Assembly (NCBI GenBank): GCA_964399295.1
Contig: CAYNQD010000002.1
Span: 104,358 to 168,357, forward strand
DNA: 64,000 nt
Reading direction: 5' to 3'
Origin: an uncultured Candidatus Saccharibacteria bacterium
GTDB taxonomy: Bacteria > Patescibacteriota > Minisyncoccia > Phycocordibacterales > UBA918
The notes under the pieces are model-generated. The model had not been told where the DNA came from. It saw only the letters and a list, made by a program, of their open reading frames with translations, and did not search any database. Position numbers and translations under genes: made by a program. Shown here one piece after another: positions 4,364 to 62,232 of the stretch. Position 1 is the stretch's first letter, and each line of letters begins with the position of its first letter.

Positions 4364-6187
4364 ATGTTTCTCTTGTCGAGAAGCTTTATCTGTTTAGTGG
4401 CCGGCCTTGTGGCCGTGCCGGCTTTCTTCTTTGTGGCTACTGGTATGGCTTGGGCGCAAAGTGAAGGTTATCAAGTGGAGTTTAAGAGTACGGCTATTGA
4501 TTTAGGTCAAAGCGTGAAGGTGGAATGGCAAGCGCCGGCCGATCGTTTGAATGGCGCTTGGATCGGTATTTTCACGGAAGGTACCGGCAACAATAACTAT
4601 CGCACTTGGAAATATCTGCCCAAAGGAGTTACTTCCGGCGAAATGGATTTTGCCGTCAATGTGGCTGGTACTTATGAAGTGCGGTTGTTTTCTGATAGTG
4701 GTTATAACAAAGCGGCGGAGGGTTCTCATAAGCTGGTCATAACTAAAGCTGGCACTGTCGGCAGTGATACCGGTAATACCGGCAGTAGTGGCAGTGGTAG
4801 CAATAATGGAAATACCAACAACGGCAATAATAACAATTCTAATTCCGGTACCGGCAACAATTCTACCGGACAATATACTTTGTCCGCCAGTAAAAGCACT
4901 TATGAATTTGGAGAAACATTGCTGGTAAGCTTCACCACTCCTAGTCCCAGGACTAATGCCGACAGCGGGGCTTGGATCGGTATTTTCACGGAAGGTGCCA
5001 ATAATAATAATTACCGCACTTGGAAATACCTACCCAAAGGAGTCACGTCTGGCGAAATGGATTTTGCTGTAAGTGTGGCTGGTACTTATGAAGCCAGATT
5101 ATTTTCTGGTAGTTATACCAAGGTGACTGACTCAGATACTTTTTTAATCAAACCAAAAAGTAGCGTGGTCACACCACCACCAACCACACCACCACCAACT
5201 CAACCGCCAAGTGCTGACGAAAATTTTTCTTTAACTGTCAGTAGTCAGGCGATTGGCGTTGGTGGTTCGGTGACTGTGAGTTGGGAAGCTCCAACGGGAA
5301 TAGATCTGCGCAATGACTGGGTCGGTATTTATCGTACCGGAGCTTCAAATTTTTCTTACTTGAGTTATTTTTATACCAACGCCACCACCAACGGCAGCGC
5401 TACTTTTAGTATCACTGCGCCCGGTAGTTATGAGTTTCGTTATTTTCGCAATGGCTCATACACTCGGGTTTCTACTTCACCGGTGGTAAATGTCAGTGCC
5501 GATACCAGTAGTTTGCAGTGTAATTTATCCAACTCTACTTTGCAGAGTGTCACCAACTATCCGCCAAGTTCGGGGCCGATTATCGCTTTTGGTGATAGCT
5601 TGACGGCTGGGGTGGGAGCGACAGCGGGGCAGGATTATGTCAGTCAGTTGTCTCGCAAATCGGGAGTGCCAATAATCAACGCTGGTATTTCCGGCAACAC
5701 CACCCGCGATGCCGCGGCCCGTTTGCAGTCTGATGTCTTATCCAGAAATCCATCAGTGGTCATTGTGTGGCTGGGTGGAAATGATATTTTGCAACGCCAC
5801 TACGAAGGATTGTTTAATGGCGCCAATAATCCAAATCTCTACGAATCTTTGCGCCTGATTTTGCTGCGTGTCACCGGTAAAATTCCAGCGCCGCAAGGTA
5901 TTACCGAAGCTGAGACTTTCGCCAATCTGAAAGAAATTGTGGAAGATATTCAAGATCGGGGAGCTGTAACCATCGTGGTTGGTTTTAGCGGTGGAGTTTT
6001 TGACGCCAAACTGGAAGCTCTTTATAAAAAAGTGGCGGATGAAACCAACTCAATATACGTGCCAAACGCCATGAGCGGCATCATCGGCCGCGTGACTTTG
6101 ATGAGTGACTTGGTACACCCCAATAACGCCGGCTATGGCCTGGTAGCAGATAAGGTTTTACCATATTTGGTTTGTGTGGCGGGGTAG
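4364..6187 (+). CDS. secreted SGNH/GDSL-family hydrolase with three N-terminal ~100-aa beta-rich repeats and low-complexity Gly/Asn/Ser and Pro/Thr linkers
   Basis: Signal peptide starting at the Met at 4364 (the ORF is open from GTG 4325). Three repeats share AWIGIFTEG...YRTWKYLPKGVTSGEMDFAV.VAGTYE.RLFS. The C-terminus carries SGNH blocks (IIAFGDSLTAG, VVIVWLGGNDI, DLVHPN). Confidence 0.7.
   Translation: MFLLSRSFICLVAGLVAVPAFFFVATGMAWAQSEGYQVEFKSTAIDLGQSVKVEWQAPADRLNGAWIGIFTEGTGNNNYRTWKYLPKGVTSGEMDFAVNVAGTYEVRLFSDSGYNKAAEGSHKLVITKAGTVGSDTGNTGSSGSGSNNGNTNNGNNNNSNSGTGNNSTGQYTLSASKSTYEFGETLLVSFTTPSPRTNADSGAWIGIFTEGANNNNYRTWKYLPKGVTSGEMDFAVSVAGTYEARLFSGSYTKVTDSDTFLIKPKSSVVTPPPTTPPPTQPPSADENFSLTVSSQAIGVGGSVTVSWEAPTGIDLRNDWVGIYRTGASNFSYLSYFYTNATTNGSATFSITAPGSYEFRYFRNGSYTRVSTSPVVNVSADTSSLQCNLSNSTLQSVTNYPPSSGPIIAFGDSLTAGVGATAGQDYVSQLSRKSGVPIINAGISGNTTRDAAARLQSDVLSRNPSVVIVWLGGNDILQRHYEGLFNGANNPNLYESLRLILLRVTGKIPAPQGITEAETFANLKEIVEDIQDRGAVTIVVGFSGGVFDAKLEALYKKVADETNSIYVPNAMSGIIGRVTLMSDLVHPNNAGYGLVADKVLPYLVCVAG
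4553..4694 (+). repeat. intragenic tandem duplication, copy 1 (about 142 nt, about 85-90% identical to copy 2)
   Basis: The DNA stretch ggcgcttggatcggtattttcacggaagg...gaaatggattttgc...gctggtacttatgaag recurs at 4967-5108. Confidence 0.8.
4967..5108 (+). repeat. intragenic tandem duplication, copy 2
   Basis: See copy 1. Encodes the second AWIGIFTEG...GTYE repeat. Confidence 0.8.
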
Positions 6188-6560
6188 GTAAATGAATAGA
6201 TTTCTGTCAGGAAAGCTGTCAAAGCAGTTTCTAACATTCTGTTGATAATTTTACTTATGCAATAAATTTTTTCAGATTTGTGTCACGTGGTTTTGAGGAT
6301 CAAATATCTGTGCCAACTTCATAACGCCGTCTGACACTTCTAAATCAAGAATATCGTTTGAGTCTACGAAGCGTATTTCCATACATTCACGCGAAGGGGT
6401 GAAATCAAAATCAGCAACCTGACATTCATAAACTATTTATGCTGACGCGATAGAAGCAGTCGGATATTGCTAGTGATGTTTTTGTGGACATGGTACTTTG
6501 ATTGTATCATGTTTTTAGTACCCAATCGTAATTAAAGATTTATATAAAAGTAAACTGATT

Positions 6561-6590
6561 AAATAAAAAAAGCCACCTCGTAGGGTGGCT
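6561..6590 (-). terminator. intrinsic terminator oriented for the minus strand
   Basis: AGCCACC-TCGTA-GGGTGGCT, followed on the minus strand by a T9 tract (A-run 6561-6570 on plus). Lies inside the 3' part of the 77-aa minus ORF 6515-6748. Confidence 0.5.
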
Positions 6591-6872
6591 AAAGTTAAGT
6601 CTTTTTCCTGTTGCAGGTCGAGCCATTCACTAGCTATCCGTTGCCTGACTGTTTTTGTAACCTCGTGAATCTGGTGGTGTTTCAGGCTATTTTCAACCAG
6701 TCTTTTACAACCTTCTGCCATTTCGGCAAATACCAAATCCTTAGACAAAAGGAACTCGAATCACTTGGTCATAAGGTTTATCGTATTTAGTACACTCGGT
6801 GGTGGCATAATCATACACAAGAAATTAACTCACTGCTTGCGTACCTAGAGCAGCTCTAGATATAATAATATT

Positions 6873-7346
6873 ATGAAAAATCAAGACATTAGATTTGCAC
6901 GTAATTTAGTAAAAGGAAAGATTGCTGAAACGGTATTTGCACAAATGCTCCGCTCGACGGGGGCTTTCACCGTTCTCGAGTTTGGCTATGAGAAAATTAT
7001 TCCCGAACTAGTAGGGAGAGGAAGGGGTGGTGATAGCGAAATGGTGGAAACATTACGCACCGCACCAGACTTTGCGGTAATCAATAACACCACCAAAGAA
7101 GTACATTTGATTGAGGTTAAGTATCGAGCTAGGTTCACCAAGCAGAATGTTTTAAATATTGCCGAGAGAATGAGTAGGAACTGGAATCCTTCGTATCTAT
7201 TTTTAGCCAGTGAAGACGGATTCTATTTTGGAGAAGTAAAGACTTTGATAGAAAACGGAGGTGACATTCAATGTCTTGACCACCCCCAGATACCAATAGA
7301 GACTCAAACAGAGTTTTTAAAGATACTAAATGATTTTGAAGGCTAG
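6873..7346 (+). CDS. PD-(D/E)xK nuclease-fold protein (YraN/Hjc-like small nuclease)
   Basis: Core motif APDFAV...(14 aa)...HLIEVKYR, which is a PD...ExK pattern. N-terminal helix G.IAE..FAQML..G as in UPF0102/Hjc-type proteins. Confidence 0.5.
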   Translation: MKNQDIRFARNLVKGKIAETVFAQMLRSTGAFTVLEFGYEKIIPELVGRGRGGDSEMVETLRTAPDFAVINNTTKEVHLIEVKYRARFTKQNVLNIAERMSRNWNPSYLFLASEDGFYFGEVKTLIENGGDIQCLDHPQIPIETQTEFLKILNDFEG

Positions 7347-7415
7347 CTTACCTAGCTAAACAAAAACAACCTCGCAAGAGGCTGTTTTTGTACCCTTCTC
7401 GGGCTAGCTCTAAAA

Positions 7416-7490
7416 GGGGCGACTACTGGGAATCGAACCCAGATAACCGGTACCACAAACCGGAGTAATAGCCGTTATACGATAGCCGCC
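7416..7490 (-). tRNA. tRNA-His (anticodon GTG) with genomically encoded G-1 pairing the discriminator C73
   Basis: Cloverleaf folded by hand. G-1 plus acceptor GCGGCTA/TAGTCGC. U8. D-arm GTAT/TTAC. Anticodon stem CCGGT/ACCGG with loop TTGTGGT. T-arm CTGGG-TTCGATT-CCCAG. Confidence 0.8.
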
Positions 7491-7501
7491 ATTTTTTTTG
7501 A

Positions 7502-7544
7502 GAAGTGAAGGAGGGGCGCGCGAAGCGCGCCCCTCCTTCACTTC
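7502..7544. repeat. 20-bp perfect GC-rich palindrome (GAAGTGAAGGAGGGGCGCGC-GAA-GCGCGCCCCTCCTTCACTTC) flanked by T9 on plus, directly 5' of tRNA-His
   Basis: Read directly. Extreme GC in an AT-rich context. No U-tract follows it on either strand, so it is not a canonical terminator. Confidence 0.7.
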
Positions 7545-7567
7545 CATCCTACATTTATACCCATTTT

Positions 7568-7596
7568 TTGCAAAAAAGTCGAGAGAGGGTATAAAT
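7568..7596 (+). promoter_or_regulatory. sigma70-like promoter (-35 TTGCAA, 17-bp spacer, -10 ATAAAT) for the small TM-peptide/YibE-F transcription unit
   Basis: Hexamers and spacing read directly. Confidence 0.5.
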
Positions 7597-7639
7597 ATTC
7601 CTTGTTGTTGGTATTGGTTGGTGTTAAAGTTAAATCATT

Positions 7640-7729
7640 ATGGATCAAGAAGCGTTGATGGTTACGTTGTTTTTTACCTTTATTTTGGGGGCGGGGGTTG
7701 GTTTTTATGTCGCTCGCTTTTTGTTTTGA
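7640..7729 (+). CDS. 29-aa single-TM peptide resembling the N-terminal helix of the UPF0154/YneF family (possibly truncated)
   Basis: MDQEALMVTLFFTFILGAGVGFYVARFLF. The GxGxGFxxAR helix resembles YneF LAGVAGGFFIARKY. It stops right after the TM. Not in the ORF track because it is under 60 aa. Confidence 0.3.
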   Translation: MDQEALMVTLFFTFILGAGVGFYVARFLF

Positions 7730-7770
7730 GAAAGACGTGGATTTGTAATGGCTTAAAATATAATTATCAA

Positions 7771-8922
7771 ATGCTGATGACAAAATTTTTTACTACCAAT
7801 ATATTGCTGTTATTTTTACTCCCTTTTTTTGTTCAGGCGCAGGAAGTACATCAGGAATTTCAGGAGACAATAAAAGCGGAAGTGATTGAAGTAGTAACAG
7901 AATATGATCGTATTATTATGGGTACTGAGACCTTAACCACGGTGCAAGAGCTGCGGATTCAGCTGAAAGGGGGAGAAAAAAGCGGTGAAGTGGTGAAATT
8001 AGAAAACGACCTGATGGTACTGGCAGCCGGCGATAAGATTTTTGTTAATCGTTTGGTTTCTTTTGATGGCGTTGAGTATTATGTCTTCAAAGATGTGGAG
8101 AGAAGAATGCCACTTTTGATTATCGTCTTGGTGTTTGTGGCTTTGACTATTTGGCTTTCCGGTCGGCAGGGGGTGAGGGCCATTATTAGTTTGGGTATAA
8201 GTATCGCGGCGATTATTTTCTTGCTGATACCGGCGCTGTTGGCTGGCTATTCGCCAGCTTGGACGAGCTTGGGTATTTCCGGTTTGATTTTAAGTTTCAC
8301 TTTATTTTTTACTCACGGCATCAAACCCAGAGTAGTGATTACTTTTCTGGGGACTTTTTCTGCTGTATTCGTCACGTGTTTTATCGCCTGGATTTGGGTG
8401 GAGTGGATGAGATTTACCGGCTTCAGCGACGATGCTTCTGTCTATTTAAATTTTGCGACTGGCGGCACTCTTGATCTGACTGGACTGCTCCTCGGTAGTA
8501 TTATCATTGGTTTTCTTGGATTGCTTGATGATGTTTCCATTACGCAAGCCTCGGTTGTACAGCAGTTAAAGGGAGCCAATAGAGATTTTGGTTTTAAAGA
8601 ATTATATCTTAGGGCTATTAAGGTGGGGCGCGATCATGTTGGTTCTTTGGTTAATACGCTGGCTTTTGCTTACGTGGGTGCCGCCTTGCCGATGATACTG
8701 CTTTATTCTTATTCTGAATCCTCAATCATGACCATTATAAATCAAGAGGTAGTCGCGGCTGAAATCCTGAGAATTGTTGTCGGTAGTATTGGGTTGATTT
8801 TGGCCGTGCCTTTGACCACTGTTATGGCGGCTTGGTATTTTAGGAATAAGGAGCCACGGGAAGAGGATATTCATACCTGTGCCGATCATCAGGAAGGTGG
8901 AATTCACAATCATGGCCACTAA
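7771..8922 (+). CDS. YibE/F-family integral membrane protein
   Basis: Signal/TM start MLMTKFFTTNILLLFLLPFFVQA at ATG 7771. The tracked ORF begins at 7498 but its first 91 codons translate the GC palindrome and promoter. Multi-TM with a GLLDDVSITQASV motif typical of YibE/F. Confidence 0.7.
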   Translation: MLMTKFFTTNILLLFLLPFFVQAQEVHQEFQETIKAEVIEVVTEYDRIIMGTETLTTVQELRIQLKGGEKSGEVVKLENDLMVLAAGDKIFVNRLVSFDGVEYYVFKDVERRMPLLIIVLVFVALTIWLSGRQGVRAIISLGISIAAIIFLLIPALLAGYSPAWTSLGISGLILSFTLFFTHGIKPRVVITFLGTFSAVFVTCFIAWIWVEWMRFTGFSDDASVYLNFATGGTLDLTGLLLGSIIIGFLGLLDDVSITQASVVQQLKGANRDFGFKELYLRAIKVGRDHVGSLVNTLAFAYVGAALPMILLYSYSESSIMTIINQEVVAAEILRIVVGSIGLILAVPLTTVMAAWYFRNKEPREEDIHTCADHQEGGIHNHGH

Positions 8923-15456: not shown

Positions 15457-15648
15457 ATGAGCAATTTTGGAAATTATTTGCGTGACACCGCCGCTGAGAT
15501 GAAGCAGGTGACTTGGCCGACACAAAAACAAGCTTTTTTGTATACGGTTTTAGTGATTGTTATTTCTGTTATCGTATCATTATTTTTAGGGCTGTTTGAC
15601 TATCTTTTTCAGATGGGCATTGATGCGATTGTAAATGGTCTTTACTAA
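15457..15648 (+). CDS. secE: preprotein translocase subunit SecE
   Basis: 63-aa protein with a single C-terminal TM, directly upstream of nusG. WPT..E motif (KQVTWPTQKQAF). Confidence 0.75.
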   Translation: MSNFGNYLRDTAAEMKQVTWPTQKQAFLYTVLVIVISVIVSLFLGLFDYLFQMGIDAIVNGLY

Positions 15649-15662: not shown

Positions 15663-16208
15663 ATGGCTAAACAAACAAACACAGGCGAAAGGCATTGGTA
15701 CGCTATCCATACTTACTCTGGATATGAAAATGCCGTCACTCGCAATCTAAAACAACGCATTGATTCGCTGGGCATGAGTGATAAAATCTTCAATGTGGTC
15801 GTACCTACAGAAAAGAAGATTAGGGTCAAGGGTGGCAAGCGCGTGATGGAAGAAGAGCGCATCTATCCTGGATATGTGCTGGTGGAGATGATTGTCGATG
15901 ATGAGTCCTGGTATGTGGTGCGCAACACTCCTCGAGTGACCGGTTTTGTCGGTAGTGGCACCCAGCCGGTACCTTTGACGGAAGAGGAATACAACGCGTT
16001 GATGAAGCAAATGTCTACCGACACCATCAAACATAAAGTTGATTTAACAGCGGGAGATATCGTGAGTATTGTGGACGGTCCCTTTAAAGACCTTGAAGGT
16101 CGTGTCGGTGAGATTGATGAAAAGAGCGGCAAGGTAAAAGTCTTGGTGCCAATGTTTGGTCGTGAGACTCCGGTAGAATTGGACTTTTTGCAGGTGAAGC
16201 GAGTGTAA
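15663..16208 (+). CDS. nusG: transcription termination/antitermination factor NusG
   Basis: NGN domain (WYAIHTYSGYENAV) and a C-terminal KOW (GDIVSIVDGPFKDLEGRVGEIDEKSGKVKVLV). Confidence 0.9.
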   Translation: MAKQTNTGERHWYAIHTYSGYENAVTRNLKQRIDSLGMSDKIFNVVVPTEKKIRVKGGKRVMEEERIYPGYVLVEMIVDDESWYVVRNTPRVTGFVGSGTQPVPLTEEEYNALMKQMSTDTIKHKVDLTAGDIVSIVDGPFKDLEGRVGEIDEKSGKVKVLVPMFGRETPVELDFLQVKRV

Positions 16209-16230
16209 TGTATTTCAAATTACCCGCTCA

Positions 16231-16297
16231 TATCCTATCAAAAGATTGAAATAATCCTATCATTTTGATAGGATTATTGATTATAAATGATAGGATT
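16231..16297. promoter_or_regulatory. operator-like array: four copies of ATCCTATCA/TGATAGGAT, including the 23-bp perfect palindrome AATCCTATCA-TTT-TGATAGGATT (16253-16275)
   Basis: Read directly. The last copy ends at the ATG of the Fic gene. Confidence 0.6.
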
Positions 16298-17344
16298 ATG
16301 ATTTCACTAAATATTAGACAAAAAGCTATTTTGGCTCACTACACCCAGATAGATGCCTTTACTCCTCAGCAGGCCAAAGAAGCTCTCGGGCTCACCGCTT
16401 CTTTGGTGACAGTGCGTCGTGATATACGAGCTTTGGTTGACTTTTCTTACTTGAAAGAAGATGGTGCGGGTCCAGCGTTGCGATATTTTAAAACTATTCT
16501 TGGTACACTACTTACTCCGATTGACGCTACGGAGTACCAGAATATTGATGTTGACAAGCGTGGTCAAAAAATCACTTTCAACCAAGCTCTTTTCCCACAA
16601 TTTCCCAAAAATATCTTTTCGTCTGAAGAGATGGAAAAACTAAATGGAGCTACCACGCGTTATAAAAAGAAGATAGAAAATCAGACACAAAATATTCACG
16701 CTAAAGAGCTTGAGCGTTTTGTTATTGAGCTGTCATGGAAGTCGTCAAGAATTGAGGGAAATACATACACGCTTTTGGACACAGAATTACTTTTAAAAGA
16801 AGGGACACCCGCGCTGGGAAAAACACCTGAAGAAACCACCATGATTCTAAATCATAAAACCGCTTTTACTTTTATCATGGAGCAACGACAGTTTTTACGG
16901 CAAGGCAATCTTATCCATTTTCTGGAAGAACTTCACCGGCTACTGACTGATAATCTGTCTATCGACCAAGGGATCCGTAAATCGCTAGTTGGTATTACCG
17001 GTACCAACTACGTACCTTTAGAAATTGGCTTTCAAATACAAGAAGCTCTTAATGATTTGTGTGAAAGTATAGAGCGAGCCTCCAGTGCCTACCAAAAAGC
17101 TCTTTTAGCCTTGGTGGGAGTTTCTTATATCCAACCTTTTGTTGATGGCAATAAGCGTACGGCACGATTGTTTGCCAATGCTTTTTTGATATCTGAAAAT
17201 TTGGCGCCACTATCGTACCGGAATGTTGACGAAAGAGATTATCGAGAAGCTATATTAGTCTTTTACGAACGTAACTCAATTTTGCCAATGAAGAATATAT
17301 TTATTGAGCAATATCTATTTTCTACCGAAAACTATACTCTGTAG
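16298..17344 (+). CDS. Fic/Doc-family protein with an N-terminal HTH domain
   Basis: Fic active-site motif variant QPFVDGNKRTAR (HPFx[DE]GNGR). N-terminal DeoR-like HTH (KAILAHYTQIDAFTPQQAKEALGLTASLVTVRRDIRAL). Start set at ATG 16298. The ORF is open from TTG 16265 through the operator repeats. Confidence 0.75.
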   Translation: MISLNIRQKAILAHYTQIDAFTPQQAKEALGLTASLVTVRRDIRALVDFSYLKEDGAGPALRYFKTILGTLLTPIDATEYQNIDVDKRGQKITFNQALFPQFPKNIFSSEEMEKLNGATTRYKKKIENQTQNIHAKELERFVIELSWKSSRIEGNTYTLLDTELLLKEGTPALGKTPEETTMILNHKTAFTFIMEQRQFLRQGNLIHFLEELHRLLTDNLSIDQGIRKSLVGITGTNYVPLEIGFQIQEALNDLCESIERASSAYQKALLALVGVSYIQPFVDGNKRTARLFANAFLISENLAPLSYRNVDERDYREAILVFYERNSILPMKNIFIEQYLFSTENYTL

Positions 17345-17412
17345 TTTTTGTGCTGTGCAACCTCTCTCCACAGGAAGCATGTGACCCCAAGACTAGTGTG
17401 TCGTACATAAGC

Positions 17413-17441
17413 TTGCAAAAACCTTGATTTTCTTGTACTAT
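17413..17441 (+). promoter_or_regulatory. sigma70-like promoter for rplK (-35 TTGCAA, 17-bp spacer, -10 TACTAT)
   Basis: Read directly. Confidence 0.55.
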
Positions 17442-17520
17442 GCGCAGGCTTCTATTGGGGGGTCTGGCTATGGAGCAGACAACTCAGACAAAAAATAATT
17501 CTTAAAATATACATAAAAAT

Positions 17521-17946
17521 ATGGCAAAAAAACTAGTAAAGAAGATTAAGGTGCAAGCTGTGGGAGGCAAAGCTACGCCAGCTCCACCTTTGGGGCCGGT
17601 CTTGGGTCAGGCGGGTATCAATATCGGTGAGTTTGTAAATCAGTTTAATGAACAGACTCGCGACCGCATGGGTGAGGTGGTACCGGTAGAGCTTTCAGTA
17701 TTTGATGACCGTACTTTTACTTTCATCACCAAAGTTTCCCCAATGTCACGTTTGATTTTGAAGAAGCTCGGCAAAGATAAGGGTGCGAGTAAGAATAAGG
17801 TATCGAAGGTCGGTACCTTGACCAAAATCCAAGTACGAGAAATCGCAGAAATGAAAATGCCCGATCTAAACGCCGCTTCAATCGAAGCCGCCATGAAGAC
17901 AGTTGCCGGCACGGCACGCTCGATGGGGGTACAGGTGGAGGAGTAG
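17521..17946 (+). CDS. rplK: 50S ribosomal protein L11
   Basis: MAKKLVKKIKVQAVGGKATPAPPLGPVLGQAGINIGEFVNQFN is canonical L11. Confidence 0.95.
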   Translation: MAKKLVKKIKVQAVGGKATPAPPLGPVLGQAGINIGEFVNQFNEQTRDRMGEVVPVELSVFDDRTFTFITKVSPMSRLILKKLGKDKGASKNKVSKVGTLTKIQVREIAEMKMPDLNAASIEAAMKTVAGTARSMGVQVEE

Positions 17947-17966
17947 TTTTTAGATAGAGAAAAGTA

Positions 17967-18003
17967 ACAAAACACCGGATTAAGTTCCGGTGTTTTGTTT
18001 TCT
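17967..18003 (+). terminator. intrinsic terminator after rplK
   Basis: ACAAAACACCGGA-TTAAGT-TCCGGTGTTTTGT followed by TTTCT. No rplA follows. Confidence 0.8.
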
Positions 18004-18138
18004 ATGGGAATCTCTAGTTAAGGTGCGCGTGTCGAAGGAGTCGAAGGCTTCCTCTCCGGCCAGCAACGAGCGTCCGACGACAGATGTCCTCGAAGCCCTT
18101 CGTCAGAAATGGGGCTCAAGATAGATTTTTAGTTTAAA

Positions 18139-18182
18139 GAGTGAAGCGTGTGCGTAAAATTGTACCGCTTCACTCCTTTTTT
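18139..18182 (+). terminator. second intrinsic terminator (10-bp stem GAGTGAAGCG/CGCTTCACTC, 17-nt loop, T6), about 135 nt downstream of the first
   Basis: Read directly. It would bound a short independent transcript covering 18004-18182. Confidence 0.6.
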
Positions 18183-18253
18183 ATATGATTATGGCATAAA
18201 ACCTCCCGCCTGTCTTTTTATAATTGACTGTTCTTTTGTATAATAAAACCACT

Positions 18254-18931
18254 ATGTCACACTACGAAATTGAAATAAAAAGTTTATTGGGTACAAAAGA
18301 AAAGGCCGAGGATTTGGTGGTGAGGATGTTGGATGTTGATCCCGATATAAGGGTGGTGGGTGAGAGTTGCCAGCTTACTCATTATTTTATTGGTGGTGAT
18401 ATTCACCATCTGTACAAAAAAGTGGAGTCTTTATTTTCCAGTGCTCAGCATGATAAATTCAAAATGATTGCTGAGAAAGGAAAAGAATTTTCCATTCGGT
18501 CTAGGCAAAAGGATGACGAGGTATTTCTTGTCATAAAAGCGTCTTTGAACGGCAGTGACAGCGTCAATGGTGTGTCGCGATTGGAGTTTGAAGAACCGGT
18601 TACTGCGCTTACTTTGGATGAATTGGACAAGTTGATTTTGGAAGCTGGCTATACCTACGAAGCCAAGTGGTCTCGCGATCGAATCGAATATGCTTGCAAA
18701 GACATAAATGTCTGTTTGGATAAAAACGCTGGTTATGGTTATTTGGCCGAGTTTGAAATTGTCACGGAAGACGAATCCACTTTGCAGGTGGCGAGAGAAA
18801 AGTTGGTGGCTTTGATGGAGGAATTGGAGGTAGAGGAATTACCACAGGATCGCTTGGCGCGAATGTTTGCTCACTATAATGCCAACTGGCCGGATTATTA
18901 CGGTACTGAGAAAACTTTTATTATTGAGTAA
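18254..18931 (+). CDS. CYTH-domain (triphosphate tunnel metalloenzyme) protein
   Basis: N-terminal ExExK signature (YEIEIKSLL) at the Met at 18254. The ORF is open from 18224. Confidence 0.6.
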   Translation: MSHYEIEIKSLLGTKEKAEDLVVRMLDVDPDIRVVGESCQLTHYFIGGDIHHLYKKVESLFSSAQHDKFKMIAEKGKEFSIRSRQKDDEVFLVIKASLNGSDSVNGVSRLEFEEPVTALTLDELDKLILEAGYTYEAKWSRDRIEYACKDINVCLDKNAGYGYLAEFEIVTEDESTLQVAREKLVALMEELEVEELPQDRLARMFAHYNANWPDYYGTEKTFIIE

Positions 18932-19509: not shown

Positions 19510-20865
19510 CTAGTCTTTCTTTTGGATATCATGTTCACCCCGCTTTACATCAAAGCGATCCATTTCCGGATCAAGGTGAATCACTAAACCTTCGTTTTTA
19601 AATTCAGCTTCAAGTAGTCGTGCCATTTCTGCCGCTTGGTGACGGAGGGTGGGGTGTACAAAGCGAGTTGCTCTTAGCTCTACCAGGTAGACAATGGCGG
19701 GGAGGTCGCCGGTGAAGTAGTTGCTGGTGTTGTATCCCATGGCTACATAATACTGAGTGTCCTCTGGCGACAGTGTCAGTCTACCGATGGCTTCCGCTTG
19801 AGTCGTGATGAGCGCTTCCGCTTCGGCTCGAAGAGTGTCGGACAATTCGTCGAGATACCAATTATTAAAGCCAAGCTCGGTGGTGAGTAGTGGCATGCGC
19901 TGGGTAATGGCACGGTGACGTTGGATATCTCGAAAAGATCCAAAATCAAGTTGGTAGGCGAAAGCCACATCACCGGCAGTACCGATCCATTTTGGTAGCT
20001 CTGTTTTAGCGGGGCGCGTTGCCAACAGATTTTTCATGGTCGCTAATTCGGCGCGGTTGATACCATTATGGACAAGTTTACATTTTGGCACGTTGGTATC
20101 GTGATAATAGTATGACCTCATGATCTGTGCGTTGTAGGTTTCGGTTGCCTCGTATCGCTTGTCAGTGAAAGAGCTGGGGAAAGCTTCAAGTAGGGCTTGT
20201 TCAATTGTTTCAGCAATTTCACGGACTTCAGATAATGGATGGTGACGAAGGAGCGCTAGCTTATCCGAAAACTGCCGCAAATTTCCATGCCAGGCAAGGT
20301 TGGTAGTGGCGCCGGCGGGGAGAAAACCACGAGTGGTATCAAACGCTCTGGCCGCGATAGCTTTTTCATACACCGTTTCCTTTTCCTCCGCGGCTCTCGG
20401 GTAGCGTTCTTTTAATACTTTCTTCATCTCTTCAACCGCTTTTAGATAGAATGTCCGCCAAGTCTCTTGCACGGTTTTACCTTCTACACCGCCCTTAGGA
20501 TTAAGAAAAATTTGATTGGTAAAATCAATGTAGCGGGTTGATGATTCTTGGCCGGAATACAGTTTCCAGTCTTGGATTGCTTTGGCGGCGAGCATGGATA
20601 CTCCTTCAATAAATAGAGTGGCACTTCCACAATCACCAATTGATTTATGTCCATAGCCCACATAATAGCTCGACATAAATTTTTCTGAGCCTCTTTCCGC
20701 CAGGACTTTGAGGTGTCCATCAATGCCTTCGGTTGAGCGCGAATGGAGCGCTTGAAGCATGGCTTCGCTTTCGGGGCTAATAATCGCACCAGTATCAAGG
20801 ACGACCACTTGTCCGCCGTCAGATAGTGATTTGCGAGTATGTTTAATTGAATCAATGGCACTCAT
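19510..20865 (-). CDS. thyX: long, tandem-duplicated flavin-dependent thymidylate synthase (ThyX-like)
   Basis: Two ThyX-like halves. The N-half carries HKSIGDCGSATLFIEGVSMLAAKAIQD but no RHR. The C-half carries FRDIQRHRAITQR. A NLRxF...LRxxxxxxEI block appears twice. Start set at ATG 20865. The tracked ORF runs on to 21174, overlapping tmk. Genomic context is dcd/tmk/dut/glyA. Confidence 0.55.
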   Translation of the reverse strand: MSAIDSIKHTRKSLSDGGQVVVLDTGAIISPESEAMLQALHSRSTEGIDGHLKVLAERGSEKFMSSYYVGYGHKSIGDCGSATLFIEGVSMLAAKAIQDWKLYSGQESSTRYIDFTNQIFLNPKGGVEGKTVQETWRTFYLKAVEEMKKVLKERYPRAAEEKETVYEKAIAARAFDTTRGFLPAGATTNLAWHGNLRQFSDKLALLRHHPLSEVREIAETIEQALLEAFPSSFTDKRYEATETYNAQIMRSYYYHDTNVPKCKLVHNGINRAELATMKNLLATRPAKTELPKWIGTAGDVAFAYQLDFGSFRDIQRHRAITQRMPLLTTELGFNNWYLDELSDTLRAEAEALITTQAEAIGRLTLSPEDTQYYVAMGYNTSNYFTGDLPAIVYLVELRATRFVHPTLRHQAAEMARLLEAEFKNEGLVIHLDPEMDRFDVKRGEHDIQKKD

Positions 20866-57592: not shown

Positions 57593-57882
57593 AATTGTCG
57601 CCCTCTTACAGTATTGTGTATTGTACTAGAAAATTTAGAAAAGGGGAGAGGTCGGCTACAAACACTTGGCACCCCGCTGATATTTCCAAGTCATATTTGA
57701 CAATTTAGAAAATATGTATTTGAACTACAGCTGGGGATTGCATAAAATTTTAATTGGTCTATACTACAGACAGTTCATTTAGTTCATTCATTTTTTAAAT
57801 TTTTTGGTTTCTGAAACCATAATTTCTTCCGAAAACCTACTTAATATTATTAAGTGGGATTTTTTATTTTTCATACATAATT

Positions 57883-57911
57883 TTGACGCCTTCTCTTTTT
57901 TCTGATAGTAT
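57883..57911 (+). promoter_or_regulatory. sigma70-like promoter for rplJ-rplL (-35 TTGACG, 17-bp spacer, -10 TAGTAT), followed by a leader of about 150 nt (putative L10 autoregulatory leader)
   Basis: Hexamers read directly. Leader length is typical of the rplJ leader. Confidence 0.5.
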
Positions 57912-58066
57912 CCTCGGCAACAGGCTCGTGACAGTCGGTCGCACCACAAGTGCGGTAATTGATACAGTTGGTATCAGCCGGCCGAGGTCCAACTATTTTG
58001 GTTTGGGGTCGAAGCCTATGCGTGATTTAAAATCATGCCTGGCCTGTTTTATTAGATTAGTTATTT

Positions 58067-58561
58067 TTGAGTTTTATGGCCATTTCTAAAGCCAAGAAGC
58101 AAGACATTCTAGCCAAGCTGGAAACCGTGAGGGACAACTCCGAGTCTATTGTCTTTGTTCACTACAAGGGTCTGTCGGTAGCGGATACTACCGCTATGCG
58201 TCGTGGTTTGCGCGAGAAGGGAGTTGGTTATTTTGTCGCCAAAAAGACTTTGATGAAGCGCGCTTTCGGTGATACTTTTACCGGCGAAATGCCCGTGCTT
58301 GACGGCGAGATTGCTGTTGCCTACAGCGAGGACGCGATTGCGCCGGCGCAAAATGTCAAAGAATTTTCAGAAAAATTCAGCAAGAATCTAGCGATTGTGG
58401 GCGGAGTTTTTCAGGGTGTATATAAAAACCAGACAGAAATGACTGAAATTGCTTCCATTCCACCGCTGCAAACTTTGCGGGGTATGTTTGTCAATATCAT
58501 CAATTCACCGATTCAAGGTCTGGTTATCGCTCTTGACGCGATTGCCGCTAAGAAGGCTTAG
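58067..58561 (+). CDS. rplJ: 50S ribosomal protein L10
   Basis: ISKAKKQDILAKLE...ESIVFVHYKGLSVADTTAMRRGLRE. TTG at 58067, alternative ATG at 58076. Confidence 0.9.
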   Translation: MSFMAISKAKKQDILAKLETVRDNSESIVFVHYKGLSVADTTAMRRGLREKGVGYFVAKKTLMKRAFGDTFTGEMPVLDGEIAVAYSEDAIAPAQNVKEFSEKFSKNLAIVGGVFQGVYKNQTEMTEIASIPPLQTLRGMFVNIINSPIQGLVIALDAIAAKKA

Positions 58562-58717
58562 TTTTTAAGTCAATTTAGATTATTAAAATAAACACTAAAA
58601 TATATCAGAAGATAAATGAAGAAAGGAGCGCAAGCGACTATTCTGAATTTAGTTCCGAATTTGCTCATTCCTAGAGCAAATTCCTGGAACACACTGGTAT
58701 AAAATTAAACAATAAAT

Positions 58718-59200
58718 ATGTCAGAAGAAACAAATGTAGTTGAAGAAACTGTAGCTACTACTCCAGAAGTAGCGGAAACAGCCGAAGTGGCGACCGCCAC
58801 CACCACAAATGGCGTTGATGAATCAGTTGAAGTACCGGCTGAATTCAAGGCTTTGGTAGAGCAAGTGGAGAAGATGAGTGTGTTGGAACTACACTCTTTG
58901 GTAAAATTGCTGGAGAAGCGTTTTGGCGTATCAGCGCAGGCGGTAGCGGTAGCTGGCCCAGCGGCTGGCGGCGCGGCAGCTGAAGAGCAGTCAGAATTTA
59001 CCGTTGAACTTACCGAGGCTGGCGCGCAGAAGATTGCCGTGATTAAGGTGGTCAAGGAGGTGCTAAGTCTAGGTCTAAAGGAGGCTAAGGACATGGTAGA
59101 CGGCGCTCCAGCGGTAGTGAAGGAAGGTATGAAGAAAGAAGACGCTGAAGCTCTAAAGGCTAAGCTTGAAGAGGCTGGCGCGAAAGTAACGCTTAAGTAA
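58718..59200 (+). CDS. rplL: 50S ribosomal protein L7/L12
   Basis: N-terminal dimerisation domain, Ala/Glu hinge, and a C-terminal domain ([22 protein letters not shown]...). Confidence 0.95.
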
Positions 59201-59332: not shown

Positions 59333-60535
59333 ATGGATGATACAGCAGTAGACAAAAGTTGGTTTGAGTCTTATTCGCAGTATGGATTTGATGATATTGA
59401 TTACTTAAATTTTGATCAAGCGCATCTAAGTAAACAGAAGGAAAAATTCTTTAAAAATGAATTAGATAACCTCGACCTTGAATACAATATCAATTTGTCT
59501 ATTTTAGAAAAATATAAAACCGGTTTGTTGGGACTTCAGGCTGAAATTGAGTCCAGCCAATCTAGCCAGCCCGTCGTCAAAAAAGCCTATCTTTTAAAAT
59601 TAACTGAACAGCTAAATAAAATAAACTTATTGGAAGCTGTGTCTAAAAAAGACGACAGCTTAGTGCGCTTTTACTCCAGTCAGATTTATGGCGTACCCAA
59701 TAAAGAACTTATGAGGCGGGCAGTTTCGGCCATTCTCTATGTGGCTGAATACAAGCAATTTCCGCTTAGTCCCATTTGGCAAGACTTGGCTGAATATTTT
59801 GGCGCGAAAAGTGACGGCACGGACATCTCTTATTTTGACGGTGCTAATAACCAAGATTTTTTAAATACTCAGCAGTTGGTAGCTTTGTTTGAAAAAGCTT
59901 TAAGTGAAAAGAATATACCGTGGCAGGTTAGTGTTAGTTCCAGTCATTTGGCTGTAGCACTGAGTTATAAAGATTGGACAGTCTACATACCACAAGGCCG
60001 ACAAGTAACGGTCACTGAAGCCAAAGCGCTGATCGAACATGAAATAAACGTACACCTGCAAAGACATATCAACGGATTAAATAGTCGTCTGCTTCTTTTA
60101 TCATCTGGACTGAACGCTTATTTGTCTGGTGAAGAGGGTTTGGCGACGTACAAACAAGTTCTTGTCGATAAAAATAATATTCCGGGTTTAACAAACTATT
60201 TGTCGGTTGGATTGCTGAGTGGTTTGCATAGAGGTCGAGCTTGGAATTTTCAGCAACTATTTGCTTTGATAGAAGAATATCTGCTTCTGTCCGGTTTGGC
60301 GGCGGATAAGGTTTCCGAAACGGCCTGGAAGCGTACTTTGCGGGCTTTTCGGGGTTCGACCGGACAACTATCCGGTAATGTTTATACCAGAGGCATTATT
60401 TATTTTGGGGGCTATTTGAATATAAAAAATTTGGTTGAAAGAGGAGATAGTGAAACAGAGCGTCTTTTTGTAGGGAAATATGACCCTTTAAATTCAGACC
60501 ATATTGATATCTTGAATATTTTGGAAATCAAATAA
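59333..60535 (+). CDS. DUF1704/MATCAP-like putative metallopeptidase (QEGLA-motif family)
   Basis: HEINVH (HExxxH) and SGEEGLATYKQ, which resembles the QEGLA motif. About 400 aa. Confidence 0.4.
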   Translation: MDDTAVDKSWFESYSQYGFDDIDYLNFDQAHLSKQKEKFFKNELDNLDLEYNINLSILEKYKTGLLGLQAEIESSQSSQPVVKKAYLLKLTEQLNKINLLEAVSKKDDSLVRFYSSQIYGVPNKELMRRAVSAILYVAEYKQFPLSPIWQDLAEYFGAKSDGTDISYFDGANNQDFLNTQQLVALFEKALSEKNIPWQVSVSSSHLAVALSYKDWTVYIPQGRQVTVTEAKALIEHEINVHLQRHINGLNSRLLLLSSGLNAYLSGEEGLATYKQVLVDKNNIPGLTNYLSVGLLSGLHRGRAWNFQQLFALIEEYLLLSGLAADKVSETAWKRTLRAFRGSTGQLSGNVYTRGIIYFGGYLNIKNLVERGDSETERLFVGKYDPLNSDHIDILNILEIK

Positions 60536-60621: not shown

Positions 60622-61257
60622 ATGTCAGACCCACTTTCGATTCTGTTTGGTAGCACGGCGCGCGTTAAACTTTTGCGTTTTTTTCTGTTTAATCCGTCCA
60701 AGGAGTTCACTTTTGATGATATGTGCAAGCGGGCGCGCTTGGTGCGGCGCACGGCCCGGACGGAGATTTCAGCTTTGGAAAGAGCTGGGGTGATTTGTTC
60801 TCGCATCACGCCGATGGTTTTGCCGGGAAAAACCAAAAAAACCAAAGTCTTGAGTTATGGTTTAAATAAAAAATTTCCTGAGCTGCAAGCCCTGCAAACT
60901 TTCCTATTTGAAACGGCGCCGATTGATGGCAAAAATCTGCTGGCGCATTTACGCAAGGCCGGGCCGGTTGATTTTGTGGTGGTGTCTGGGGTGTTTGTGC
61001 GCGAGTTTGAGCAACGCTTGGATTTGTTGCTGGCGATGAAAAAATTATCACAAACCAAGGTGGAAAGCGCTGTGCGTTCTTTTGAAGCGGAGATTGGAAT
61101 TGAAATTCGTTTTGCCACCATGACTTCTGAAGATTTGCTTTATCGGGTCGGCATGTACGACAAGCTCACTCGCGATGTCTTTGACTATAAGCATCAAATA
61201 TTGGTAGACAAAATCGGCGTTCGTGATGAATTGCATACCGGGTCTTATCGAGGCTAG
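60622..61257 (+). CDS. hypothetical protein with an N-terminal winged-HTH
   Basis: 211-aa ORF. N-terminal wHTH-like region (ARVKLLRFFLFNPSKEFTFDDMCKRARLVRRTARTEISALERAGVI). Confidence 0.5.
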   Translation: MSDPLSILFGSTARVKLLRFFLFNPSKEFTFDDMCKRARLVRRTARTEISALERAGVICSRITPMVLPGKTKKTKVLSYGLNKKFPELQALQTFLFETAPIDGKNLLAHLRKAGPVDFVVVSGVFVREFEQRLDLLLAMKKLSQTKVESAVRSFEAEIGIEIRFATMTSEDLLYRVGMYDKLTRDVFDYKHQILVDKIGVRDELHTGSYRG

Positions 61258-61313
61258 AGTGTGTTATCATAAATATTGTATTCATTATACGTTTAATCGT
61301 TTAATAAAAATTT

Positions 61314-61991: not shown

Positions 61992-62050
61992 TTGAATGTT
62001 GATGATTGAGTCGCAAATTGCGTGATTTGCGCGGAAATAAAAACAAAAAT

Positions 62051-62086
62051 AAAGCCGCGGCCCGAAGGGCCGTGGCTTTATTTTTT
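62051..62086 (+). terminator. intrinsic terminator
   Basis: AAAGCCGCGGCCC-GAA-GGGCCGTGGCTTT followed by ATTTTTTGTTT. Confidence 0.8.
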
Positions 62087-62232
62087 GTTTACGCCACATT
62101 TAATAGGCTAATCTTTAATTAAAATAATGATTATCAAAATCCAAAACCCTTGTTAAATAACCCTATAAATCCCTGTGTATAAAAGTGTGCATAAAAGGGA
62201 GATAACTAAAGGTTTTTGACCACAACTTACGC

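What the first reader, a model, noticed from the sequence alone, without database searches (positions are those of the whole stretch)
16209..18223. HTH-Fic gene with a palindromic operator array inserted between nusG and rplK; rplK is followed by terminators, not rplA
The universally conserved secE-nusG-rplK-rplA-rplJ-rplL block is broken twice here. A Fic/Doc-family gene (QPFVDGNKRTAR) with an N-terminal HTH sits between nusG and rplK. It is preceded by four copies of ATCCTATCA/TGATAGGAT, including a 23-bp perfect palindrome that ends at its start codon, which looks like autoregulation. rplK has its own consensus promoter and is followed by a terminator, then no L1 gene. rplJ-rplL are 40 kb away, with their own promoter and leader, and are not followed by rpoB. 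Loss of L1 is a reported trait of a Parcubacteria subgroup. A Fic AMP-transferase lodged inside this operon is unusual and may target a translation or transcription factor.
Basis: partly seen in the sequence, partly recalled or inferred. Interest (0 to 1): 0.5.

Follow-up and report, generated by a model that had tools for sequence, protein, structure and literature searches.

The report
Self-repressed HTH–Fic cassette beside rplK
A stand-alone gene for a DNA-binding Fic-like protein, carrying a four-site operator built into its own promoter, has landed in a variable gap between nusG and rplK of an L1-less Parcubacterium; the placement is incidental, but the gene belongs to a large, uncharacterised family whose Fic active site lacks the catalytic histidine.

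Summary
The order is secE-nusG, a 348-aa winged-helix + Fic-fold gene (16298-17344), then rplK. Four ATCCTATCA/TGATAGGAT boxes lie upstream, two terminators follow rplK, there is no rplA in 64 kb, and rplJ-rplL sit 40 kb away.

The autoregulation idea is strongly supported. The same → → ← ← box array, with 22-bp spacing and overlapping the promoter, precedes homologues 40-72% identical in unrelated contexts across Patescibacteria and Bacteroidota. The box sequence changes together with the first residues of the recognition helix.

The "AMP-transferase lodged in the operon" idea is not supported:
- The motif is QPFxDGNKRxxR in every homologue with a recognisable motif: Gln replaces the catalytic His and a Doc-like Lys replaces the second Gly.
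- No neighbouring gene is conserved.
- Five close relatives keep the same synteny, but their nusG-rplK slot is empty or holds other small ORFs.
- rplK has its own conserved promoter.
- All five also lack rplA after rplK, so the L1-related break is a known lineage trait (OD1-L1) unrelated to the Fic gene.

Best reading: an accessory, self-repressed single-gene cassette. The closest characterised analogue is CccR. It is a new variant of a known kind, and its biochemical activity is unknown.

The parts
15457..15648 (+). secE
   Evidence: PF00584, E 3.2e-19
15663..16208 (+). nusG
   Evidence: PF02357, E 5e-29, plus KOW. 92-97% identical in syntenic relatives.
16232..16296 (.). Four-box operator array: box 1 16232-16240 (→), box 2 16254-16262 (→), box 3 16266-16274 (←), box 4 16288-16296 (←). 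Spacing is 22/12/22 bp, symmetric about 16264.
   Evidence: The same array lies at the same offsets from the ATG in homologues.
16246..16274 (+). Predicted promoter of the Fic gene: -35 TTGAAA (16246-16251), 17-nt spacer filled by box 2, and an extended -10 TGaTAGGAT that is box 3 itself.
   Evidence: 9 of 12 positions, with TG. TTG at the -35 position in 22 of 25 loci that have the central palindrome; -10 is TA[CG]GAT. The transcription start site is inferred, not measured.
16298..17344 (+). wHTH-Fic-like protein, 348 aa. wHTH is residues 1-66 (nt 16298-16495). The inhibitory-helix motif SSRIEGN lies within residues 146-157 (nt 16733-16768). The Fic loop QPFVDGNKRTAR is residues 279-290 (nt 17132-17167).
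17345..17412 (+). Right-hand end of the inserted segment. It has no homology to relatives and no terminator-like structure.
   Evidence: Alignment A2; fold z -0.34; no blastn hit
17413..17520 (+). Native rplK promoter (TTGCAA 17413-17418, TACTAT 17436-17441) and its 5' leader of roughly 70-80 nt
   Evidence: Conserved in six related genomes
17521..17946 (+). rplK (L11)
   Evidence: PF03946 + PF00298
17967..18005 (+). Intrinsic terminator 1 after rplK (bidirectional)
   Evidence: -24.8 kcal/mol, z -6.5
18139..18183 (+). Intrinsic terminator 2
   Evidence: -23.3 kcal/mol, z -4.5, followed by UUUUUU
58076..59200 (+). rplJ (58076-58561) and rplL (58718-59200). They are detached from rplK and have their own promoter at 57883-57911.

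Best explanation
The segment from about 16209 to 17412 is an accessory single-gene cassette. It has been inserted into a naturally variable gap between two separate transcription units, secE-nusG and rplK, of an L1-less Paceibacteria-type genome.

Proposed mechanism:
1. The gene encodes an N-terminal winged-helix domain fused to a class-II-type Fic fold. [Shown.]
2. The winged helix binds the four 9-bp boxes. Box 2 fills the -35/-10 spacer, box 3 is the extended -10 itself, box 4 covers the start-site/5'-UTR region and abuts the ATG, and box 1 lies two helical turns upstream. An oligomer on one face of the DNA therefore blocks RNA polymerase, and the gene represses itself. [Binding is inferred from comparative evidence. 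The layout is shown.]
3. The Fic-like domain is not a canonical AMPylase. The catalytic His is Gln and the anion-hole Gly is Lys (Doc-like NKR). The flap, the rest of the loop, the second Arg and the inhibitory SxxxEGN helix are invariant. [Shown.]
4. I infer that the domain still binds a nucleotide or phosphate ligand. I take it to be the 'payload' of the cassette: a latent effector or toxin-like activity with non-canonical chemistry. It would be kept low by tight autorepression and by the in-cis inhibitory helix, like a single-chain toxin-antitoxin or defence module. CccR of Yersinia is the precedent. [Inferred, moderate confidence.]

Its position next to rplK has no demonstrated functional meaning. 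There is one side effect: no terminator separates it from rplK, so derepressed Fic transcription would read into rplK. [Inferred.]
For: Cassette and insertion:
- Five relatives with L11 89-94% and NusG 92-97% identical keep the synteny RNR-M10-SIMPL-secE-nusG-[slot]-rplK-[slot]-CYTH-DCD (DHFR before CYTH in all but one locus).
- Their nusG-rplK slot is empty or holds unrelated 104-aa or 170-aa ORFs.
- Homology to relatives resumes at the rplK promoter.
- The Fic gene has GC3 of 0.35, against 0.51-0.52 for nusG and rplK.
- None of the 80 loci from species-representative genomes has nusG or rplK beside the homologue.
- No recurrent neighbour was found among 267 flanking ORFs.
- The closest homologues sit after fusA, next to PemK/Phd genes, or upstream of rplJ. 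One family member is on a Bacteroides plasmid.

Operator:
- The boxes lie at -66/-44/-32/-10 from the ATG, and the same array precedes homologues 62-72% identical.
- An ATCGTATCA variant sits at the same offsets in many Patescibacteria.
- 43 of 83 loci have at least 3 copies of a 7-mer plus its reverse complement in -100..-1. The rate is 6% in shuffles and 4% in random windows.
- Box type tracks the start of helix 3: SLVT with ATC[CG]TATCA, SYAT with AGCTCA, S[DE]xT with AATCGG, SERT with TTCGTG, TR[FM][ST] with TGCAAC.
- The -35 TTG and the -10 TA[CG]GAT are embedded in the palindrome in 22 of 25 loci.
- In Bacteroidota-type loci the TAnnTTTG promoter element directly precedes the last box in 32 of 43.

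Protein:
- wHTH fold and profile matches.
- Fic fold, pLDDT 90, best matches FICD, BtFic, SoFic and CccR.
- Q and K align to FICD H363 and G370.
- QPFxDGNKRxxR in 120 of 120 close homologues, and in 112 of the 114 representatives at 50% identity that have a recognisable motif (36 further representatives, probably fragments, gave no motif match). None has His.

Precedent:
- CccR is a Fic+HTH protein. It autorepresses through inverted repeats at its -35/-10 (PMC9755527).
Against: - No experiment exists on any family member. DNA binding, oligomeric state and the transcription start site are all inferred.
- The toxin or effector role of the Fic-like domain is conjecture. A Gln at the catalytic position may mean no transferase activity at all, which would make it a pure sensor domain.
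- Three of the four closest homologue loci lie within 0-4 kb of translation genes (rplJ, fusA, rpsL/rpsG). A non-random association with that genome region is therefore not excluded.
- The window's GC difference is modest (gene GC is 1.3 SD below the window mean).
- The source genome outside the 64 kb could not be inspected.
Confidence: 0.68

Rival explanations
1. The protein is an active Fic AMP-transferase whose placement inside the nusG-rplK cluster reflects a functional link, such as modification of EF-Tu, NusG, L11 or another translation or transcription factor.
For: - Class II Fic fold with a conserved target-docking flap and an inhibitory helix.
- Some Fic and Doc enzymes do target EF-Tu. 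Doc does (my own knowledge: Castro-Roa 2013). So does SoFic (bioRxiv 10.64898/2026.07.09.737422, listed).
- Close homologues lie next to rplJ, fusA and rpsL/rpsG.
- There is no terminator between Fic and rplK.
Against: - The catalytic His is replaced by Gln and GNG by GNK throughout the family.
- NCBIfam adenylyltransferase and Doc models score far below their cut-offs.
- The gene is absent from the same slot in five syntenic relatives.
- No homologue in 80 species-representative genomes neighbours nusG or rplK.
- No conserved neighbour exists.
- The insertion site is a boundary between two transcription units, not the inside of an operon.
Confidence: 0.07
2. The protein is a one-component transcription factor. 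Its Fic-like domain is a catalytically dead ligand sensor (a pseudoenzyme) that tunes DNA binding. It controls itself and possibly distant targets, and has no toxin or effector activity.
For: - Loss of the catalytic His.
- Invariant ligand-contacting residues and an invariant inhibitory Glu are compatible with regulated nucleotide binding.
- In CbFic2, DNA binding and Fic activity are allosterically coupled (PMC10628234), which shows that the two domains can communicate.
Against: - No second target site is visible in 64 kb. There are only four exact boxes, all at its own promoter.
- No conserved regulated neighbour in 83 loci. A regulator that regulates only itself needs another function.
- The target-docking flap residues (R227, G232, G235, Y238, P240) are invariant.
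- The patchy, accessory distribution is atypical for a housekeeping regulator.
Confidence: 0.22
3. The nested palindromes act at the RNA level, as a terminator or insulator hairpin after nusG or as a translational occluder, rather than as a protein-binding operator.
For: - As RNA, 16205-16305 folds into a nested hairpin of -31.2 kcal/mol (z -5.7) that buries the ATG.
- The symmetric C→G change in both arms between clades would also preserve an RNA stem.
- The reverse strand is flagged as terminator-like.
Against: - The predicted promoter lies inside the array, so the gene's own mRNA would contain only box 4.
- The box sequence itself, not just complementarity, is conserved within clades and tracks recognition-helix residues.
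- The 22-bp (two-turn) direct spacing is preserved, and in Bacteroidota-type loci the inner spacing is about 21 bp instead of 12, which keeps the same DNA face.
- Bacteroidota boxes are only 6-7 nt long and about 14 nt apart, which would make poor stems.
- No U-tract follows on the + strand.
Confidence: 0.05
4. The Fic gene was not recently inserted. It is an old resident of the rplKAJL-rpoBC-str super-cluster in this Parcubacteria subclade, dispersed by rearrangement and lost from the sampled relatives.
For: - The four closest loci are beside nusG/rplK, beside rplJ-rplL, beside fusA, and 4 kb from rpsL-rpsG.
- Fic identity (72%) is similar to L10 identity (75%) between the window and L091.
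Against: - The nearest relatives by L11 and NusG (89-97% identical) lack it at this site, which would require repeated loss.
- In L091 the cassette is bracketed by a 99-nt direct duplication, a mark of insertion or recombination.
- In L089 it sits among PemK/Phd modules.
- Translation genes make up a large share of these ~1-Mb genomes.
Confidence: 0.12

Closest known systems
CccR of Yersinia pseudotuberculosis (PDB 7XUX; PMC9755527)
   Same: One polypeptide combines a class II Fic fold, an in-cis inhibitory helix (SxxxEG) and an HTH DNA-binding domain. It represses its own promoter by binding inverted repeats at the -35/-10 region. 7XUX is recovered by both the sequence search and the fold search.
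   Different: - CccR has its HTH at the C terminus.
- It has a canonical HPFxxGNGR motif with a catalytic His192 and AMPylates FtsZ.
- Its operator is two half-sites 26 bp apart, not four boxes.
- It is a T6SS-secreted effector.
CbFic2 of Coxiella burnetii (PDB 8CIL; PMC10628234)
   Same: A class II Fic with a DeoR-type winged HTH. DNA binding drives dimerisation and switches Fic activity. Its HTH region weakly matches the N-terminal profile used here (E 0.72).
   Different: The HTH is C-terminal, the motif is canonical HPFDDGNGRIGR, DNA binding is largely non-specific, and the target is a eukaryotic histone.
Doc of the Phd/Doc toxin-antitoxin system
   Same: An NKR in place of NGR in the active-site loop, and an autorepressed module.
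   Different: - Doc keeps the catalytic His.
- It is a small single domain without a flap or an in-cis inhibitory helix.
- DNA binding resides in a separate antitoxin.
- TIGR01550 scores 14.6 bits against a cut-off of 38.65.
Motif class Qx[F|Y]x[D|E][G|V]NKR ('clade D2') of Khater & Mohanty 2015 (PMC4454073)
   Same: The same active-site motif, with Gln for His. The authors noted it as conserved and of unknown function.
   Different: It was described in silico from 45 sequences as 'usually single-domain' Doc-like proteins. No HTH, operator or autoregulation was described. Whether D2 is the same clade as this family was not tested.
Class II Fic enzymes: FICD/HYPE, SoFic, BtFic (3CUC), CdFic
   Same: Best structural matches (Foldseek E 3e-9 to 1e-5, TM about 0.55-0.6). 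The position of the inhibitory helix and the flap are shared. The PADLOC SoFic model matches at 1.4e-17.
   Different: All have HxFx(D/E)GNGRxxR. None has an N-terminal winged helix. Sequence identity is 17-21%.
OD1-L1 Parcubacteria lacking ribosomal protein L1 (Brown et al. 2015, as cited in PMC5220378 and bioRxiv 10.1101/2022.01.07.475337)
   Same: rplK is not followed by rplA in the window or in five relatives, and rplJ-rplL are detached.
   Different: Whole-genome absence of rplA could not be checked from a 64-kb window.

Membership tests
Fic/Fido superfamily (Pfam PF02661) | Significant match to the Fic domain profile, and a Fic fold | tested here: met
   PF02661, E 3.7e-13, 50.6 bits against a cut-off of 24. 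Foldseek to FICD, BtFic and SoFic, E down to 2.6e-9.
Canonical AMPylating Fic enzymes | Active-site motif HxFx(D/E)GNGRxxR with a catalytic His and a second Gly | tested here: not met
   The motif is QPFVDGNKRTAR. Q279 aligns to FICD H363 and K286 to the second Gly. The change is conserved in all 120 close homologues and in 112 of 114 motif-bearing representatives.
Class II Fic proteins | Inhibitory helix motif (S/T)xxxE(G/N) N-terminal to the Fic core in the same chain | tested here: met
   SSRIEG, invariant E153, aligned to FICD TVAIEGN.
Doc (death-on-curing) toxins | HxFx(D/N)(A/G)NKR motif, a small single domain, and a score above the TIGR01550 cut-off | tested here: not met
   NKR is present but His is absent. 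TIGR01550 gives 14.6 bits against a cut-off of 38.65. The protein has a flap and an inhibitory helix, like class II Fic.
[quoted passage not shown] | α1-α2-α3-β-β topology and similarity to known wHTH repressors | tested here: met
   AF2 pLDDT 89; H6-14, H23-30, H36-48, E52-55, E62-65. Foldseek to AspA, MarR, TubR and AdcR, TM 0.70-0.75. Profile hits to HrcA 3e-5 and Fur 3e-4.
Autoregulated repressor with a promoter-embedded operator | Cognate repeated sites overlap the protein's own -35/-10, and the protein binds them | tested here: inconclusive
   The overlap of sites with the promoter, and covariation of sites with the recognition helix, are shown comparatively. Physical binding and repression cannot be tested with these tools.
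Type II toxin-antitoxin module | Two adjacent co-transcribed genes, a toxin and a DNA-binding antitoxin | tested here: not met
   It is a single gene. No recurrent neighbour was found among 267 flanking ORFs of 83 loci.
SoFic anti-phage defence system (PADLOC) | Full-length match to the SoFic model, and a demonstrated defence phenotype | tested here: inconclusive
   Partial match, 62 bits, profile positions 9-218 of 361. This is generic Fic similarity. The phenotype is not testable here.
L1-less Parcubacteria (OD1-L1) | No rplA anywhere in the genome | not testable with these tools
   No rplA in the 64-kb window, and none next to rplK in five relatives.
Conserved secE-nusG-rplKAJL cluster | Contiguous secE-nusG-rplK-rplA-rplJ-rplL | tested here: not met
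   The Fic gene lies between nusG and rplK. rplA is absent and rplJL are 40 kb away. The rplK/rplJ split is shared by relatives; the Fic gene is not.

The most novel reading that the evidence does not exclude
wHTH-Fic(Q/NKR) proteins form a large, uncharacterised class: at least 634 clusters at 50% identity, across Patescibacteria and Bacteroidota, with scattered members in other phyla. They would be single-chain, self-repressing modules in which a Fic fold without the catalytic histidine performs a new function. That function could be a non-canonical transfer reaction using a Doc-like inverted nucleotide, or nucleotide sensing that gates DNA binding. The co-evolving four-box operator would give a ready-made protein-DNA recognition code.
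Probability: 0.3. Interest if true: 0.65.

Novelty: new variant of a known kind. Interest (0 to 1): 0.45.

Why it matters
For this window, the result removes a tempting story. The Fic gene is not part of ribosomal-operon biology. It is an accessory cassette in a variable gap, and the missing rplA is a known lineage trait.

What remains of interest is the family:
- It is widespread and unnamed. A Fic fold with an invariant Gln in place of the catalytic His and a Doc-like Lys is fused to an N-terminal winged helix.
- It always carries a four-box operator built into its own promoter, in two phyla with different promoter architectures.
- This gives a directly testable case of autoregulation by a Fic protein beyond CccR.
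- The natural covariation between recognition helix and operator could be used to work out specificity.
- It poses a clear biochemical question: what does a histidine-less but otherwise invariant Fic active site do?
- Members in cultivable Bacteroidota make the experiments feasible.

Tried and rejected
- Rfam on the whole window at gathering threshold, and at E ≤ 1 on 16150-18300 and 57600-58750. No L10 or L11 leader and no other RNA family; only chance-level hits.
- The conserved rplK leader as a structured RNA. RNAalifold gave -8.5 kcal/mol with no compensatory pairs, so there is no support.
- A terminator between the Fic gene and rplK. None found (z -0.34).
- Flanking direct repeats or target-site duplication around the window cassette. 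None found; only L091 has a 99-nt duplication.
- The palindromes as transposon terminal inverted repeats. Rejected, because all four boxes lie upstream of the gene and none lies downstream.
- A conserved partner gene (antitoxin or target). None among 267 neighbours.
- Phage origin. Only distant partial hits of under 32% identity to canonical Fic genes. Plasmids: one family member at 44% identity on a Bacteroides finegoldii plasmid near an integrase, the rest around 30%.
- Identifying the source organism by exact cluster look-up. No names were returned. The lineage was inferred only from L11 homologues labelled Paceibacterota, Pacebacteria or Nomurabacteria.
- The near-box TGATAGTAT at the rplJ promoter as a second target. 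Rejected as evidence. Single one-mismatch sites are at chance frequency, and the box itself resembles an extended -10 element.
- Literature searches for an N-terminal wHTH-Fic or for the QPFEDGNKR motif. Nothing beyond the in-silico D2 motif class.
Full report
**1. What is in the sequence**

The + strand carries the following genes:
- secE, 15457-15648
- nusG, 15663-16208
- a 348-aa ORF, 16298-17344
- rplK, 17521-17946
- a CYTH-domain gene and a dCTP deaminase further downstream

The ORF matches Pfam Fic/DOC (PF02661, E 3.7e-13).

The 9-mer ATCCTATCA occurs exactly four times in the 64-kb window, all in the 89-bp nusG-ORF spacer. Two copies are on the + strand (16232, 16254) and two on the - strand (16266, 16288). 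The array is symmetric about 16264, with start-to-start spacings of 22, 12 and 22 bp.

The central palindrome is 16250-16278. The fourth box is the one that abuts the ATG at 16298.

Other points of the observation also hold:
- rplK is followed by two strong terminator hairpins.
- There is no rplA in the window.
- rplJ-rplL lie at 58076-59200 with their own promoter. They are followed by a terminator and a MATCAP-like ORF rather than rpoB.

**2. The protein**

An AlphaFold model built with 45 homologues has pLDDT 90.

- Residues 1-66 form a winged helix (α-α-α-β-β).
  - A model of residues 1-78 alone matches AspA, MarR, TubR and AdcR at TM 0.70-0.75.
  - A profile of the N-termini hits the DNA-binding domains of HrcA, Fur, TubR, ArgR and MecI.
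- The rest is a class II Fic fold. The best matches are FICD, BtFic 3CUC, SoFic, CdFic and CccR 7XUX.
- The inhibitory-helix motif SSRIEGN aligns with FICD TVAIEGN.
- The active-site loop is QPFVDGNKRTAR. Gln aligns with the catalytic His363 of FICD, and Lys with the second Gly of GNG.
- This is not a local degeneration.
  - All 120 closest homologues have QxFxDGNKRxxR.
  - Of the 150 best representatives at 50% identity, 112 have the Q/K motif, 2 have another variant, and 36 (probably fragments) gave no motif match. None has His.
  - The flap residues, the inhibitory helix and the remaining loop residues are invariant.
- NCBIfam models for adenylyltransferase Fic and for Doc score far below their cut-offs.

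Calling it a 'Fic AMP-transferase' is therefore not justified. Khater & Mohanty (PMC4454073) listed this motif class in silico (Qx[F|Y]x[D|E][G|V]NKR, 'D2') without assigning a function.

**3. The operator belongs to the gene, not to the locus**

The same four boxes lie upstream of the closest homologues (62-72% identical), which sit in unrelated contexts:
- L087, after fusA
- L089, among PemK/Phd genes
- L091, just upstream of rplJ-rplL
- L094

In these loci the array keeps the same internal spacing, and its distance to the ATG matches the window or differs by 5-6 nt.

More distant Patescibacteria homologues (43-51% identical) carry ATCGTATCA/TGATACGAT at -44/-32/-10. Other clades have different boxes in the same → → ← ← layout:
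- TTCGTG[CA]CA
- TGCAAC
- AGCTCA in Bacteroidota
- AATCGG[GC] in Prevotella-like genomes

Across 83 loci, 52% have at least three copies of a 7-mer plus its reverse complement within 100 nt of the start. The rate is 6% in shuffles and 4% in random windows.

Box type tracks the first residues of the recognition helix:

| Helix-3 residues | Box |
|---|---|
| SLVT | ATC[CG]TATCA |
| SYAT | AGCTCA |
| S[DE]xT | AATCGG |
| SERT | TTCGTG |
| TR[FM][ST] | TGCAAC |

This is what direct readout by the protein's own winged helix predicts.

**4. Promoter geometry**

In 25 loci aligned on the central palindrome:
- A TTG sits at the -35 position in 22 of them.
- Box 2 fills the 17-nt spacer.
- Box 3 (TGaTA[CG]GAT) is an extended -10.
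- Box 4 lies 22 bp downstream, and the ATG comes at +34 from the palindrome centre in 15 of 25 loci.

In Bacteroidota-type loci, the phylum-specific -7 element TAnnTTTG directly precedes the last box in 32 of 43. That this motif is the Bacteroidetes promoter element is my own knowledge.

The operator therefore overlaps the core promoter in two phyla with different promoter types. This is the signature of autorepression by promoter occlusion. The 22-bp periodicity puts all sites on one face of the DNA. In Bacteroidota the inner spacing is about one helical turn longer, which preserves that face.

An RNA-level role is a by-product at most. The nusG read-through transcript would fold into a -31 kcal/mol nested hairpin that buries the ATG. 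The gene's own mRNA, however, would contain only box 4.

**5. Why it sits between nusG and rplK**

L11 homologues 89-94% identical come from genomes labelled Paceibacterota, Pacebacteria or Nomurabacteria. Five such loci, including the complete genome CP060227.1, share this synteny:

RNR – M10 peptidase – SIMPL – secE – nusG – [slot] – rplK – [slot] – CYTH – DCD (with DHFR before CYTH in all but one locus)

- The nusG-rplK slot is empty in three of them and holds unrelated 104-aa or 170-aa ORFs in the others.
- The slot after rplK is also variable.
- None has the Fic gene, and none has rplA after rplK.
- Homology between the window and these relatives resumes exactly at a conserved rplK promoter and leader, CTTGCAAAAaCC…TTTTCTTGTAC[GT]AT…GCAGGCTTC…TATGGAaCA. 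rplK is therefore its own transcription unit, and the insertion lies between units.
- In the relatives a terminator precedes that promoter. In the window none follows the Fic gene, so Fic transcription could read into rplK.
- The Fic gene has lower GC3 (0.35) than its neighbours (0.51-0.52).
- None of the 80 homologue loci from species-representative genomes has nusG, rplK or secE nearby.
- No neighbour family recurs.

**6. The L1 question**

The absence of rplA from its canonical position is shared by all sampled relatives. It matches the published OD1-L1 group of Parcubacteria (PMC5220378; bioRxiv 10.1101/2022.01.07.475337). It is a known trait and is independent of the Fic insertion. Genome-wide absence cannot be shown from this window.

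**7. What it most likely does**

Well supported: this is an accessory, self-repressed single-gene cassette. The closest characterised analogue is CccR of Yersinia. CccR is a class II Fic with a C-terminal HTH that represses its own promoter through inverted repeats at -35/-10 and AMPylates FtsZ (PMC9755527). CbFic2 shows that DNA binding can gate Fic activity (PMC10628234).

The family differs from both in three ways: domain order (N-terminal wHTH), a four-box operator, and above all a histidine-less, Doc-like active site.

I take the Fic-like domain to be the payload, for these reasons:
- A regulator with only a self-site needs another function.
- The flap and the loop are invariant.
- The gene is patchily distributed and sits in variable regions, sometimes among toxin-antitoxin genes.

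Its chemistry is unknown. A pure sensor pseudoenzyme is the main rival.

One caveat remains. The closest subclade recurs near translation genes (rplK, rplJ, fusA, rpsL/G). This may reflect old residence in that genome region rather than chance.

**8. Verdict**

- Autoregulation is strongly supported.
- The AMPylase and operon-function reading is not supported.
- L1 loss is already known.
- The family is a new variant of a known kind (an autoregulated HTH-Fic protein) and has no published characterisation that I could find.

Noticed in passing
L091 165-263 and 1403-1501: In the locus of the closest homologue (72% identical), the Fic cassette lies directly upstream of rplJ-rplL. It is bracketed by a 99-nt direct repeat (89% identical). 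Each copy encodes a 31-aa hydrophobic mini-ORF, which looks like an insertion or recombination scar.
   Followed up: partly
window 17413-17520: The rplK promoter and its 5' leader of roughly 70-80 nt are conserved in six related genomes of a lineage that appears to lack L1, the usual translational repressor of this operon. There is no Rfam match and no compensatory base pairs.
   Followed up: partly
window 18000-18130: A GC-rich (53%) ~130-nt stretch sits between two strong terminators downstream of rplK. It has no homologue in the relatives' loci, no Rfam hit and no fold signal (z +1.0). It holds only a 44-aa ORF.
   Followed up: partly
window 57903-57911: TGATAGTAT, one mismatch from the operator box, forms the extended -10 of the rplJ promoter (TTGACG-17-TAGTAT). 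A single site like this is at chance frequency, but the box itself resembles an extended -10 element.
   Followed up: partly
window 19510-20865 (- strand): The window encodes ThyX (PF02511) where the syntenic relatives carry ThyA, in most cases with DHFR. This looks like a non-orthologous replacement of thymidylate synthase in the same neighbourhood.
   Followed up: no
window 60622-64000: The 23S rRNA gene starts at 62773. It is preceded by protein-coding ORFs, and no 16S rRNA gene lies anywhere in the 62 kb upstream, so the rRNA genes appear unlinked.
   Followed up: no
L095-L100, positions about 5150-6000 and 6430-8300: The gaps on both sides of rplK are variable among close relatives. Depending on the genome, they hold small membrane-like ORFs, an F420-ligase-like gene, a C39 peptidase cluster or an rve transposase.
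   Followed up: partly
window 59333-60535: The gene after rplL, where rpoB would normally be, is a 400-aa protein matching Pfam MATCAP (a microtubule-associated tyrosine carboxypeptidase-like metallopeptidase family), E 1.3e-19.
   Followed up: no
L087 8001-8033 and window 16265-16297: Gene callers extend some family members by 11 codons (MIGLL.. from TTG) straight through boxes 3 and 4. The N-terminal alignment shows that the ATG after box 4 is the real start.
   Followed up: yes
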